Assembly: GCA_964016885.1 (NCBI GenBank)
Contig: OZ024751.1
Coordinates: forward strand, 16,926,001-16,990,000
DNA from: Eledone cirrhosa
Lineage: Eukaryota
Reading direction: 5' to 3'
DNA: 64,000 nt
Shown: piece after piece, positions 2,506-51,896 of the stretch
Position numbering within the stretch: the first letter of the stretch is position 1
Layout: the number at the start of each line of letters is the position of its first letter
The notes under the pieces: model-generated
What the model was told of the DNA's origin: nothing
Database searches by the model: none
Seen by the model: the letters and a program-made list of their open reading frames with translations, nothing else
Program-made: the position numbers and the translations under genes

Positions 2506-2879
2506 TAGAAGTGGTTACACAACAGTTAGTTAACCATATAGTGAACAATTGTTTCACCTTAGCGGATCCTCAGCTCGTAATGGACATAGTTATACGGAAC
2601 AGGAAGGACAACCGTACGAACGCGCAGTTATCTCCCTTACACCTCCCGCACGCTTTTTTGTATTGCCTGTGTGAAGTGACGGTTACTGCGCATGCACGTT
2701 CGTACGGTTGTCCTTCCTGTTCCGTATAACCATGTCCATTACGAGCTGAGGATCCGCTAAGGTGAAACAATTGTTCTCGGTATGGTGAACTAACTGGTGT
2801 GTAACCACTTCTACCTAACACGTCCCTTGGACTGAGTGCCCTGCCACTACGGATATTACCTTCCAGTGTTCTACCACTA
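2506..2879 (+). mobile_element. Fold-back PLE-like terminus (family H1) in (TA)n
   Basis: Inverted arms at ~2506-2612 and ~2698-2813, with a ~65 nt tail only on the + copy. Flanked by TA tracts. Relatives at 34345-34420, 34705-34870 and 51525-51560. Confidence 0.7.
2742..2779 (+). ncRNA. Minimal type I hammerhead ribozyme motif
   Basis: CGAG-CTGAGGA-TCC GCTAA GGT-GAAA-CAATTG-T-T-CTCG: helix I CGAG/CTCG, helix II CC/GG, palindromic helix III ACAATTGT, GUU triplet. Confidence 0.75.
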
Positions 2880-2908
2880 TATATATATATATATGTGTGC
2901 GTGTGTAT

Positions 2909-3249
2909 AAAGGTAAAGATCCCCTTCGGTCACGAATGACCATGGGATTTGCACCGATAAATTTTCCCTCCGAGGCACAAGTCCGGGCAAGGTTGTTTGT
3001 GGAAGACCACCATTTGCCCATGTATAGCAACCTCCCCTCTCCACACCACCGATGATGTCCAAGAGAAAGGCAATGGCCGACATAGCTTGATACCAATGAC
3101 GTCGCAACTCATTTCTACAGCTGAGTAAACTGGAGCAACGCGAACTAAAGTGTCTTGCTCAAGGACACAATGTATCATCCGGTCCAAGAATCGAACTCAC
3201 AACTTTCCAATTGCAAGCCCAATGCTCTAACCACCAAACCCATGCGCCT
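2909..3249 (-). mobile_element. tRNA-derived SINE (family B, CORE-like central domain)
   Basis: Reverse strand has an A box (ggtttggtggttagagc), a B box (gagttcgattc), the CORE-like tgtgtccttgagcaagacactt, and a 3' end gatctttaccttt. Confidence 0.8.
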
Positions 3250-4791
3250 TTTATATATATATGTATCTATATATGTATGTACGTGTCTATAAACATACAC
3301 ATTAATAGAAATTTGTTTCCTCGTTTATCATTGACGTTTTTCTAAATAAATAACAGAATGGCGGGTGTACATAGAATCATGTACAATATTTAATATATGA
3401 ATTACTTTCTTTATGAAGCAGCAGGTAATGTTTTTCTAAAGATATTCATCATTGTACGTGAAACTGTATTTTAATGAAAACCGACCATATTTTGCTTAGA
3501 ATATGCTCATCCCATGTACACAAATACTACGATATCCTTCATTCCTCAAGAGGTTATTATAATATCAACAGTGGATTTGTGACTTAACGTTGACTGCAAT
3601 TCATAGAATTGTTTTGTAGCTTCACAAAAATTCATATTAAAAAATGGTATATTAAACAATGCCGATGCAACAAGGAACTGAACCAAGGTGACATAGTAAA
3701 TAATAAGGCTGCGATTTCGAATAACAAGCGCAACTTATCCGATGGGCATCTATAGAGTTTGCATTTACCCAAACTCACTTACTACGCATGTGTCAGCTAA
3801 TACTATGATAAAGAATATTTCTCAAAATCTTTCGAAGTTGAACCTAAGACGAGATCTCTTGCTGGGAAATGGGAACATTCTAGAATGTGTAGTCTCTAAA
3901 AAAGAAACGGTTAAGACTTCTTTAACTCTGGGAATTTTCCGTCCGTCATAATGCTCTTCAGACGTAAAGCTCAGGTAGCTTTATTTTTGTGACATAAAAC
4001 ATCGAGTAGGGCAGGTAGGTTTTTCTGAAGCTTTGTTAATGAGAATTAATTCGTATTTAGTAAAGAAAAGACCAGGTTTATTTATTTAAACGTTTTCTTT
4101 CTGCTAAAACACGTTGACGGTGTTTTGTGTCATAGCAACATAGCAAGCTTTGGAAAGACTCATTTTATTTCTATCCTCCACAAACTTACACTAGTAGACA
4201 TAAAATATTGTGTGGCATATTTATATATGCAGGTATATCTTTCTCTCTTTATTTCTATATACGTTACACACACACATATACACACACAAACACACATATA
4301 TATATATAACCACACATACACATGTATATATAACCACACATACACACATATATATATAACCACACATACACACAGATATATATAACCACACATACACAAA
4401 CACACACATACACATATATATATGACCACACATACACATACATATATAACCACACACATATATCTATATCTCTCTCTCTCTATATATATATATATAACCA
4501 CACATACACATATATACATGTGTTGTGTGGTTGCTTATATAAGTAGTTAAAATTTATAATAAATAATAATCATATATATATATAACTAAGGAGGTGTGGT
4601 AAGGAACCAGATGGACCATGACGCACCAGAGTACTCAATATTTAGGGTAGTAGAATTCCTATATATATATATATATATATATATATATATATATAATGAA
4701 ATACTGTTGGCTTCACGTTCACAATAATTTCTATACTTATATATATATATATATATATATTAATAAATATAGACATTCATGTGATCAAATA

Positions 4792-4859
4792 TATTTTATT
4801 ATACAAATATTTCAGAGATACTGAGCTATTTCAACAGTACGTCCTCATCAGATAAAATA
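4792..4859 (-). ncRNA. Type I hammerhead ribozyme motif
   Basis: Reverse strand: TATTTTAT-CTGATGA-GGACGTACTG..CAGTATCTCT-GAAA-TA TTTG TA-T-A-ATAAAATA. Perfect 8 bp helix I, ~9 bp helix II, 3 bp helix III, intact core, AUA triplet. Confidence 0.75.
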
Positions 4860-5114
4860 AGTTGATGACTGACATACCTTAACTATGTTGATGGTTATAA
4901 TTTAGTCATGGCAGAGATTAGTTATGACAAAACTCGATATTTATATACTTTAAGTTGAAACATGAAAAACTACATATAATACAGAGGGTGCGTATGAGAA
5001 TGAATGCGTAAAAAGATATATAAATAATTAATAATATATAATACATAAACTTATATAACTGTTAAAAATTTAAATAATTTCAATTATATATATATATATA
5101 TATATATATATATA

Positions 5115-5250
5115 TATTTATTAAAATAACAGTTTAAAGTTTAAGCAAAAAATCGCTGCTTTCACCCTTAACGGTTCTTATATTTGATATATATTGATCC
5201 TTATCGAGCCCTCTTTGGATTTTAGTCTTCAAATTTATTATTATTACTAT
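5115..5250. mobile_element. Short inverted/truncated copy of PLE-like family H2
   Basis: 5115-5174 is the reverse complement of 15781-15842. It is joined at 'acgg' to the same tail as 15849-15927. Confidence 0.7.
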
Positions 5251-49288: not shown

Positions 49289-49495
49289 ATGACAACTATA
49301 ATGATGGCAATAATAGAAAAAAGGGAAACAAATGGAAAGAAAGAATCGGGAAATATAGAGAAAAGGAGAGAAAGATCGAAGGGGAGGGGATGGCCAGAGC
49401 TCTAGTGTCGCAGAAGACGGAGGAGGTGTGAAGGGGAAAGGTTATTGGGCTTTGGGCCTAGTGTAAGACGGCAGATAAAGTCCTTTATTGATAAG

Positions 49496-49570
49496 GTTGT
49501 GATACATATTTCATTAACAACAGTGGCCATGTGATTACGTGCAACGAGTGTCATGAACTCATCAGACAGC
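49496..49570 (-). ncRNA. Hammerhead motif followed by AATAAA
   Basis: Reverse strand: GCTGT-CTGATGA-GTTCATGACA...TGTTGTTAAT-GAAA-TA TG TA-T-C-ACAAC, AUC triplet. Confidence 0.55.
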
Positions 49571-50639
49571 TTCATTACATAATAACCTTACGTTCTCGAG
49601 ACAATCCAAACTAAACGAGAAGAGAACGGACAAAGATGATGATTGAAAAGCCTTCGCCCGTTCCCTTGTGTTTATATATATATATATATATATACACAAG
49701 GGAACGGGCGAAGAGTGCGCTATGTATAAAACAGTGCTATTTAATTCGAAAGTGAACAATACGTTGTTCAATTTTTATATATATATATTCATACACATAT
49801 ACAAGGTATAAGACATAGTGTCAACATTGAGTCATTCCTGTGCTAAAATGAATAAGGGTTATACTATTCTTAGACTAATAACAACTTATCCATATTTATC
49901 AAGCTGCATCGAAAGAAACTCCTTCGATATGTATTTCTGCCCCTGTTGCAACTTCTACCTAAGTATATCTACTAATATTGACTGATTAGTACAGCCTCAT
50001 GCACTATGCCTTATTTGATATTCTTGTCGTAGTTCGGTATTCTCAAATATTGATGAACAATTTGATTTTTCAGTCCAACTATGTTTTTATTAGTTTGCTT
50101 TCTTCATTTCTGTTATGTTGTATTTCAACTTTTCAACCATCATTCTTTTTTATATGATATTGAATAACATGTCTTTTATTTCTGTGGTTGAATGCAAAGC
50201 AGTTTTTTCATATATATTATCTAAAAAAAAATATATTATGTATATATACACAAGACAGTATGTAATTCTACGTAAGATTTTCCCAGGAAACGTCTCAGTT
50301 TGTATGGAATAATGTACCTTTGTGAAAGCATTCGATCCATTTATTCTATACTTTGTAAAGATCCCCACAGCGCATTATTTCAAAGCTGGGTCCATTCATT
50401 GGCAATATATTATATAATCTATTTTACGTTTTCCAATTAAACATATTCTAATATACACATCATTTCCAAAGATTTGAATGTCACAAATTCCAATTTCCAC
50501 TCTGTTACAAATATCGAATGAACAGTTTAGGGAATTTAGATCTATTTTACGGAGACATATTCTCAGTTTCACTTCGAAATAAAATTATTCTTGGCGAATT
50601 TGCAACTAATTAAATGGTTAAACAGAACCACGACTATAT

Positions 50640-50748
50640 GCGTCCTGGAAGCCGAAGGCTGGTTGTTTATTATTTTTCAAAGTTTTGGTTGAAAAAATTA
50701 GGGTGCGCCCTCGACGACGAAGCATCTTCGTCCTCAGGAAATACAGTA
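50640..50748. mobile_element. Possible Tc1/pogo-type MITE end
   Basis: aaaaaattagggtgcg...cttcgtcctcaggaaatacagTA resembles pogo/Tigger-type termini. The partner end was not found. Confidence 0.35.
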
Positions 50749-51565
50749 ATCAAATCCATATCACAGAATTAACTGTTCTCCTATTCATTTTGATTTTAAT
50801 AATTACATGTTCCTACGTTTAGTTCCGGGTAAGGTACTATCTAGGATAATTTCCATACAATATTAGGTTCAACAGTTTTCTTTATACCACAAATGAAGTG
50901 TCCCATTTTATATCCGAAGGGGGAACGAATGGAAAATCGTTTCAGAAATGCGGGTCTAAAATTTCCCATTCTGTTAGTTGTGCATTGGTGAAGGCATACA
51001 CCAGTATTACAATCACAGAAAGAATTTAAGAGAATTATGTAGAAAAGGATCGAAAATAGTGTTGCGGTAGATATATCAGCCTGTTTCACTCGGTTTTCAA
51101 GTCAGATTATAGATGATAATTTAGCATTGAAATTTTCAATTTGTTTTTTCTCATCACAGTGATTTTGCTGGCCTGTTACTTAGTTGTATTTTATATGAGG
51201 TTCTTCAGATATTTTAATGATTGGAGCTTCGGTTCTATAGTGAAAGAAAACATGAAATGAAGCATCTTGCCGAAGAAAAAAACGGGCTACTCGATCCAGA
51301 ATCAAAGTGACAAGTTTCTGATTTTAAGTCCAACGCCGTTACCTATTTGGCCAGGAGCATTCAAAGTTTTGAGTAGGCATCAAATCTTTCTGAATATATA
51401 ATTCAGTACCTTCGTCTTAAATGTGTCAAAGCCCTTTGTAAGTTCAGTAATCACCATGGCTGCTTCACTAAGTCTGTATATAGTCAAATAGACTGAGGGA
51501 TATATATATATATATATATATATATGAAGATCCGCATAAGGTGAAACAATTTTCTCGGTATATAT

Positions 51566-51896
51566 ATATCAATGATATTAATAAATGGAAACTATATTTA
51601 TAAAACCATATTTATTCTATTATATATAAGTCAAGGGTACCAAACGAGATCTTAACGTTCCTGGATATGCCAATATTTATAAAACAAACTTTGTATTTTA
51701 TCTGATGAGGGGGTACCAAAGTTTTGGTACCCTTGATATATATATATATATGATAGAATAAATATGGTTTTATAAATATAGTTTCCATTTATTAATATCA
51801 TTGATATTATACACCACAAAACTTGTCGAGTGCTTCGAATCAGTTATAAATATATATATTTGTTGAATTACCAACAAATTAAATATCCCTTTGCTT
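51566..51896 (+). mobile_element. Fold-back PLE-like terminus related to family H4, degenerate hammerhead at 51694-51760
   Basis: TATTTTAT-CTGATGA-GGGGGTACCAAA GT TTTGGTACCCTT-GATA(TA)n-ATAGAATA. Inverted arm at 51566-51644; the tail is homologous to 14918-15005. Confidence 0.7.

What the first reader, a model, noticed from the sequence alone, without database searches (positions are those of the whole stretch)
2506..51896. Recurring insertion layout: inverted tail-less copy plus direct copy with a 45-135 nt tail
Seen in at least 9 loci of different families: 2506-2879, 15023-15927, 16484-24358, 32397-32582, 34705-34870, 36250-36496, 41937-43040, 44514-45083 and 51566-51896. The inverted arm always stops short of the true 3' end, at an AT/TA-rich internal site, sometimes right after AATAAA/ATTAAA, and merges into target (TA)n. 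Established: PLEs show inverted 5' pLTRs and an extra 3' tail. Inference: both nicked TA ends prime cDNA, one at the RNA end and one at a fixed internal site, as in twin priming.
Basis: partly seen in the sequence, partly recalled or inferred. Interest (0 to 1): 0.75.

Follow-up and report, generated by a model that had tools for sequence, protein, structure and literature searches.

The report
Lopsided two-armed Penelope retroelement insertions
These nine mirror-image inserts are real and have the already published lopsided shape of Penelope-like jumping genes, likely made by copying the element's RNA onto both cut DNA ends from two fixed starting points, so the shape is ordinary and only the likely mechanism is of interest.

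Summary
All 9 of 9 loci are real: a head-to-head inverted arm (90-99.5% identical to the direct arm, gaps aside), a 44-134-nt tail on one side, TA repeats outside. An inverted pLTR with a one-sided tail is the published hallmark of endonuclease-bearing Penelope-like elements (PLEs). One locus carries a Hydra-clade GIY-YIG remnant; several carry hammerhead cores. The tail-less end is fixed: 17 of 18 tail-less ends in six window families fall at their family's site, and in reads of the same species 1,297-1,505 reads per run leave one base into (TA)n. Two-ended priming fits (about 0.6): the tail-less arm is the longer one in 4 units, and 12 of 13 two-armed units pair one tailed with one tail-less end. 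But the tail end is probably an internal start too, not the RNA end, and the poly(A)-signal hint is weak (2 of 9). A bulged hairpin opens 7 of 9 tails. My searches found no paper applying twin priming to PLEs; this scan reported the same layout, mechanism and hairpin before, in this genome and others.

The parts
2508..2626 (-). L1 inverted tail-less arm
2690..2813 (+). L1 direct arm with type I hammerhead core at 2746; spacer 2627-2689 of unknown orientation
2814..2878 (+). L1 tail, 65 nt
15024..15283 (-). L2 inverted tail-less arm
15284..15841 (+). L2 direct arm (longer arm; spacer is sense-oriented sub-repeats)
15842..15927 (+). L2 tail, 86 nt
16484..16617 (-). L3 tail, 134 nt; its hairpin encloses a 61-nt loop
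16618..19659 (-). L3 direct pLTR/3' region, microsatellite-rich, hammerhead core at 16815
20965..21345 (-). 5'-truncated C-terminal GIY-YIG endonuclease remnant of Hydra-clade PLE type (CxxC-E-N-CxH)
21347..24358 (+). L3 inverted tail-less arm, hammerhead core at 24160
32397..32448 (-). L4 inverted tail-less arm
32449..32508 (+). L4 direct arm, CTGATGA core at 32455
32509..32582 (+). L4 tail, 74 nt
34706..34771 (-). L5 inverted tail-less arm (the longer arm)
34768..34870 (+). L5 direct arm (to 34820) plus 50-nt tail; same family as L1
36251..36357 (-). L6 inverted tail-less arm with the only hammerhead core (36348); the longer arm, inner end approximate
36355..36496 (+). L6 direct arm (to 36423) plus 73-nt tail
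41938..42459 (-). L7 inverted tail-less arm
42474..43040 (+). L7 direct arm (to 42996) plus 44-nt tail; no confirmed hammerhead, no tail hairpin
44514..44569 (-). L8 inverted tail-less arm; spacer 44570-44943 of unknown origin
44944..45083 (+). L8 direct arm (to 45006) plus 77-nt tail
51567..51644 (-). L9 inverted tail-less arm
51690..51896 (+). L9 direct arm (CTGATGA core at 51702; to 51807) plus 89-nt tail
5123..5248 (.). extra unit, L2 family: inverted arm joined to a tail-only direct piece over a 4-nt overlap
14822..15005 (.). extra unit, L9 family: inverted arm with hammerhead joined to a tail-only piece over a 9-nt overlap; the pieces abut at the internal site
32608..32775 (-). extra unit, L8-like family: direct arm plus 72-nt tail and a short inverted arm; internal site at 32681-32682
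16007..16115 (.). exception: L8-family hairpin with both arms tail-less
26468..28147 (+). two further L3-family copies in direct orientation: tail-less 26468-26680 and tailed 27816-28147, separated by TA-rich repeats
34357..34420 (+). solo tail-less copy, L1/L5 family

Best explanation
These are 5'-truncated, head-to-head insertions of Penelope-like retroelements in (TA)n, with one arm ending at a fixed internal site and the other 44-134 nt further 3', likely made when both nicked target strands each prime a cDNA, one from each of two fixed start sites inside the element RNA. Steps. (1) The GIY-YIG endonuclease would nick both strands of (TA)n (shown in vitro for an anole PLE on AT-rich DNA; inferred here). 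(2) One 3' end would prime at the tail-end site, the other at the site just 5' of a bulged hairpin that opens the tail (two start sites shown in vitro for that PLE; fixed positions shown here; the hairpin's role is inferred). (3) Both cDNAs stop early, often near the hammerhead, and would be joined at their 3' ends over 0-9 nt of overlap, which gives inverted arm plus direct arm plus tail (layout shown, joining inferred). (4) The excess of tail/no-tail pairs suggests the two sites are used in a coupled way, e.g. by an RT dimer on one RNA (inferred).
For: Fixed ends: window census and reads leaving base 32682 into (TA)n, 1,297, 1,505 and 1,326 reads in runs X4-X6 and 240 contigs in X1. The tail-less arm is the longer arm in L5, L6, 5123-5248 and 14822-15005, which a cDNA started at the tail end cannot produce by copying itself. 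In 6 of the 12 opposite-strand joints listed, one arm begins inside the tail and the other upstream of the internal site. L5's two arms carry different family variants. 12 of 13 two-armed units are tail/no-tail and 0 are tail/tail; P=0.0017 against independent 50:50 choice. Both strands are cut and extended, and the two RT starts equal the tail ends, in vitro (PMC11167929). Hydra-type endonuclease in L3.
Against: No intermediate, empty site or TSD was seen, and (TA)n flanks hide TSDs. Short tailed arms could also come from later deletion in an unstable palindrome. In L2, L3, L4, L9 and 32608 the tailed arm is the longer one, and the arms of L1, L3 and L9 share private variants; both fit self-copying equally well. 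PMC11167929 saw no strand difference in start site and did not test coupling. Read joints rest on 1-3 start positions each, a likeness of 80 and a cut reference, and do not show whether the long arm is tail-less. Only 1 of 9 loci has protein evidence; L7 and L8 have no recognised hammerhead.
Confidence: 0.6

Rival explanations
1. Fold-back self-priming: one cDNA (or an antisense-templated copy) snaps back and copies itself, and endonuclease cleavage at a fixed site resolves the intermediate, leaving the tail on one side. This is the reading in PMC3846280 (self-priming) and PMC8557442 (EN-mediated resolution).
For: Near-perfect palindromic centres (L4 6-nt spacer, L7 14-nt). Arms of one locus share private variants in L1, L3 and L9. 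It predicts tail/no-tail pairs and no tail/tail pairs, as seen. The tailed arm is longer in 5 units.
Against: The tail-less arm is longer in 4 units, and read joints start inside the tail. Solo and direct-tandem tail-less copies end at the same site with no partner to copy (34420, 26680; joint 32511 to 32450). The internal site is an RT start on RNA in vitro (PMC11167929).
Confidence: 0.27
2. Two cDNAs from both strands, but from two separate RNA molecules that each pick a start site independently; the lopsided form is just the commonest outcome.
For: No strand bias in start site in vitro (PMC11167929). A tail-less/tail-less hairpin exists (16007-16115). L5's arms differ at family-diagnostic sites.
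Against: It predicts about 25% tail/tail units, and 0 of 13 were seen. The arms of L1, L3 and L9 share private variants.
Confidence: 0.08
3. MITEs or foldback DNA transposons with terminal inverted repeats and TA target duplications.
For: Inverted repeats and TA at both outer ends.
Against: The repeats are not terminal on the tailed side in 9 of 9. The inner fold point varies between copies of one family (12 different opposite-strand joints listed). Hammerheads point outward. One locus holds a PLE endonuclease.
Confidence: 0.02
4. Assembly artefact, or local inverted duplication seeded by self-pairing (TA)n.
For: The window has perfect or near-perfect inverted duplications centred on (TA)n (14213-14278, 49652-49713).
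Against: In those the TA lies in the centre, here outside. Arms differ by 0.5-10%. Reads of three other samples show the same end in other copies.
Confidence: 0.03

Closest known systems
Insertion unit of EN+ Penelope-like elements: inverted 5'-truncated pLTR plus one-sided tail (Pen2a_Av, PMC3846280; Fig. 2 of PMC8557442)
   Same: Head-to-head inverted copy, tail on one end only, 5' truncation, hammerhead in the pLTR, microsatellite targets.
   Different: Tails here are 44-134 nt against the 30-40 nt stated in those papers; most units are non-coding stubs; no TSD can be seen in (TA)n.
Hydra clade PLEs (PMC8557442; e.g. Hydra-1_Obim, Hydra-1/2_Ajap, Hydra-2_Amil)
   Same: C-terminal GIY-YIG with CxxC and CxH flanking the conserved E and N, (TA)n targets, type I hammerheads. 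Tail motifs (GAGCAC/GAGTAC) also stand in the published consensi; the L6 tail shares a 14-nt word with Hydra-1_Ajap (seen by eye).
   Different: Only L3 has coding sequence, and its RT is missing. The main-text passages I saw do not describe long tails or the tail hairpin.
PAc (Poseidon, anole) in vitro reaction, PMC11167929
   Same: Both strands of AT-rich DNA are nicked and extended; two internal RT start sites bracket the tail; initiation is at a stem-loop without homology to the target.
   Different: Another clade; the paper does not link the two sites to the inverted arm and saw no strand preference.
L1 twin priming (Ostertag and Kazazian 2001; title seen in a reference list; content recalled)
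   Same: Two target strands prime two cDNAs, giving an inversion joined by microhomology; units 5123-5248 and 14822-15005 show the same non-overlapping geometry.
   Different: In L1 the first primer uses the poly(A) end and the second anneals at variable sites. Here both sites are fixed and internal, and most units duplicate the same stretch.
Non-LTR retrozymes as non-autonomous PLE derivatives (bioRxiv 10.64898/2026.07.22.740005)
   Same: Short non-coding type I hammerhead repeats related to pLTRs; a head-to-tail joint with a 77-nt period is seen in reads of the L4 family.
   Different: That preprint treats tandem arrays; it has no occurrence of 'tail' or 'priming'.

Membership tests
EN+ Penelope-like elements | GIY-YIG endonuclease in the ORF | tested here: met
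   L3 only: ORF remnant, Pfam GIY-YIG E=0.0066, below the curated cut-off; 726 relatives at E<=1e-10. Absent from the other 8 loci.
EN+ Penelope-like elements | PLE-type RT in the same ORF | tested here: inconclusive
   Truncated away in L3. Longer homologues P0054, P0101, P0107 and P0135 carry RT motifs like the Hydra alignment, judged by eye; Pfam named no RT in them.
EN+ Penelope-like elements | Inverted 5'-truncated pLTR with one-sided tail | tested here: met
   9 of 9
EN+ Penelope-like elements | Type I hammerhead in the pLTR | tested here: met
   My descriptor scan (motif recalled, no null run) gave 10 hits in the window, 7 of them in the L1, L3, L6 and L9 families. Cores seen by eye in L4 and L9, a variant in L2, a part in L5; not confirmed in L7 and L8. 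Rfam's best 150 of 460 matches held no hammerhead.
Hydra clade | No CCHH; CxxC and CxH on either side of conserved E and N; CxCx5C linker | tested here: met
   L3: C81, C84, E87, N100, C109, H111 invariant in 8 of 8 aligned sequences; linker present in homologues, truncated in L3 (definition)
Hydra clade | RT phylogeny | not testable with these tools
   No RT left in the window; no genome held
Hydra clade | (TA)n insertion preference | tested here: met
   TA repeats flank both sides of 9 of 9 loci, short or degenerate on the left of L2 and L9 and around L3
MITE / foldback DNA transposon | Symmetric terminal inverted repeats and a constant unit | tested here: not met
   One-sided tails; variable inner ends
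MITE / foldback DNA transposon | Target-site duplication | not testable with these tools
   Flanks are (TA)n; no empty site obtained
L1-type twin priming | First primer at the RNA 3' end (poly A), second at variable complementary sites | tested here: not met
   No poly(A); the second site is fixed. It works like twin priming but is not the L1 case.

The most novel reading that the evidence does not exclude
In Hydra-type PLEs a conserved bulged hairpin places the reverse transcriptase, and a protein dimer on one RNA assigns one start site to each nicked strand in a coupled way. That would explain the class's long-unexplained inverted pLTR and tail in one step, with tail length set simply by the spacing of the two signals (44-134 nt here).
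Probability: 0.35. Interest if true: 0.6.

Novelty: new member of a known kind. Interest (0 to 1): 0.35.

Why it matters
How PLEs form their tandem/inverted ends is named as open in PMC8557442, and PMC11167929 leaves the steps after initiation unvalidated. These short, very numerous stubs give end points and junctions that can separate two-ended priming from fold-back, and point to an RNA hairpin that can be mutated in an existing in vitro assay. For annotation, such hairpins should be filed as PLE stubs, not MITEs. The layout itself is not new.

Tried and rejected
No whole genome is held, so no genome-wide alignment or empty-site comparison was made. Read evidence covers only 32450-32745. There the tail ends were hidden because 32575-32621 was skipped as repeat, and only 24 of 739 loose-end rows and 15 of 29 joints were shown, so this is not a full histogram; L4's own internal site was not among the rows shown. 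No read data were obtained for L3 or any tail end. The search for homologous proteins (longer proteins) found nothing for the endonuclease remnant. Rfam gave only microRNA-like chance matches among the 150 shown. Whole-tail folding is not unusually stable (z from -1.6 to +1.1, 12 tails), and RNAalifold on a MAFFT alignment of 8 tail starts found no consensus pairs. In one search the L9 tail start was set 15 nt too late; it was corrected. Rejected: poly(A) signal at the internal site (2 of 9); Naiad, because the EN is C-terminal and hammerheads are present; Nematis, because the motifs differ; MITE; artefact. No RNA run was sought (the one search was for DNA), so RNA ends were not tested.
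Full report
Setting. The window is repeat-rich animal DNA with many (TA)n tracts. An earlier scan note calls this genome an octopus; I did not test that. No whole genome is held.

Observation. A self-comparison and local alignments confirm 9 of 9 loci. Each has an inverted arm head-to-head with a direct arm, which runs on into a tail before TA repeats resume. Tails are 65, 86, 134, 74, 50, 73, 44, 77 and 89 nt, and arms are 90-98.5% identical without gaps in eight loci, 99.5% in the unique part of L3. 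L1 and L5 are one family, so there are 8 families. Orientation can be set independently of the tail by hammerhead cores or the ORF in L1, L3, L4, L6 and L9, more loosely in L2 and L5. In all seven the arms point outward and the tail is 3'. AATAAA/ATTAAA precedes the internal site in 2 of 9 against a 3-8% background: not a rule.

Are the ends fixed? The six multi-copy families have 18 tail-less 3' ends in the window, counted by eye: L1/L5 5, L2 2, L3 2, L4 2, L8 5, L9 2. Of these, 17 lie within about 5 nt of their family's site, six of them defining it. The miss is 51525-51561, 30 nt early; 12540 ends at the site but joins non-TA sequence. Tail ends also coincide within about 3 nt in L1/L5 (2), L2 (3), L3 (2), L8 (3) and L9 (3). 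One L4-family copy (56021) ends about 23 nt early in a CA repeat. Outside the window, runs of the same species label were laid on 32450-32745. Reads that leave base 32682, the internal site of the L8-like unit, into (TA)n number 1,297, 1,505 and 1,326 in three RAD runs (depth about 11,000-12,700), plus 240 contigs in X1. This place is among the six rows shown for every run; 715 rows were not shown, and RAD reads stack, so these are not locus counts.

What the elements are. L3 holds a 5'-truncated ORF end on the minus strand with a weak Pfam GIY-YIG match. It has 3,119 relatives at E<=0.001. The longer ones show RT motifs and a CxCx5C linker like the published Hydra alignment, and L3 has the Hydra CxxC-E-N-CxH pattern. 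The other loci are non-coding. They are tied to PLEs by layout, hammerhead cores and shared tail motifs; L7 is tied by layout only. Seven of 9 tails open with a stem (typically ACTC/GAGT, a 1-2-nt bulge and a 3-5-bp upper stem whose sequence differs by family) 2-12 nt after the internal site. I took this lead from earlier scan notes. The pattern is post hoc, and unbiased folding did not recover it. In L3 the stem encloses 61 nt, which accounts for much of its long tail.

Mechanism. The layout is published: an inverted 5'-truncated copy and a 30-40-bp tail at one end (PMC3846280, passages; PMC8557442, passages, sections 11 and 15 and supplement parts; PMC8969392, passages). PMC11167929 (parts 1-2 of 4, the whole main text) shows that a PLE protein cuts and extends both strands of AT-rich DNA and starts RT at two internal RNA sites that bracket the tail. 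Joining these facts gives two-ended priming. The window adds four points. (a) The tail-less arm is the longer arm in L5, L6, 5123-5248 and 14822-15005, the last two joined to tail-only pieces over 4 and 9 nt. (b) In one search, 6 of 12 listed opposite-strand joints have one arm starting inside the tail. (c) L5's arms carry different family variants. Against: later deletion can shorten an arm; five units have the tailed arm longer; arms in L1, L3 and L9 share private variants; centres of L4 and L7 are near-perfect palindromes. All of this fits the published self-priming idea too. I put two-ended priming at 0.6 and fold-back at 0.27. I could not test this for these families.

Novelty. Searches for 'twin priming' or 'twin-priming' with Penelope (3 and 0 papers, the three on other topics by their listing), for recent PLE mechanism papers and for head-to-head/both strands showed no paper that applies twin priming to PLEs. 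The library lacks most subscription papers, and bioRxiv supplements were closed. The 2026 retrozyme preprint (part 1 of 5 and term search) does not treat tails. Within this scan the same layout, mechanism, Hydra assignment and hairpin were reported several times, in this genome and in others; those notes are leads, not support. Verdict: real, new members of a known kind, with a plausible and testable but unproven mechanism; interest 0.35.

Noticed in passing
window 14213-14278, 49652-49713, 31465-31744: Inverted duplications with (TA)n in the centre, the first a perfect 66-nt palindrome; a different class from the PLE units, perhaps TA fold-back repair.
   Followed up: partly
window 34357, 51525, 34771, 26468, 27816, 14926, 32449, 48003: 5' (inner) ends of many copies cluster at or within about 10 nt of the hammerhead core; this suggests an RNA 5' end or an RT stop there.
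   Followed up: partly
reads on window 32511 to 32450: A head-to-tail joint with about 15 letters between gives a 77-nt hammerhead monomer without the tail, like a retrozyme or a template jump at the internal site.
   Followed up: no
window 52801-53245 and 60393-60601: Palindrome of about 445 nt (83%) and an inverted pair of about 62 nt, not flanked by (TA)n and without hammerhead cores; unclassified.
   Followed up: no
window 48897-49288, 38294-38695, 5345-6241: An abundant short interspersed repeat family, including an inverted pair at 48903-49288.
   Followed up: no
window 45187-46335 (+): 382-aa open frame with a zf-RVT domain (Pfam E=1.7e-6): 3' end of a LINE.
   Followed up: partly
window 4700-4860 (-), 12633-12772, 45123-45192, 62515-62656: Further hammerhead-like fragments next to (TA)n from other families, not analysed.
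   Followed up: no
window 21310-21950: Tandem duplication of about 316 nt at the L3 junction between ORF remnant and inverted arm.
   Followed up: no
window 14378-14724: Copy with L2-like body and an L1-like 3' end running into (CT)40: a mosaic family or recombinant.
   Followed up: partly
window 13141-13192 and 13669-13720: 52-nt direct repeat (96%) around a unique 476-nt stretch.
   Followed up: no
window 55335-55858: Satellite of 29/58-nt period, 96-98% identical copies.
   Followed up: no
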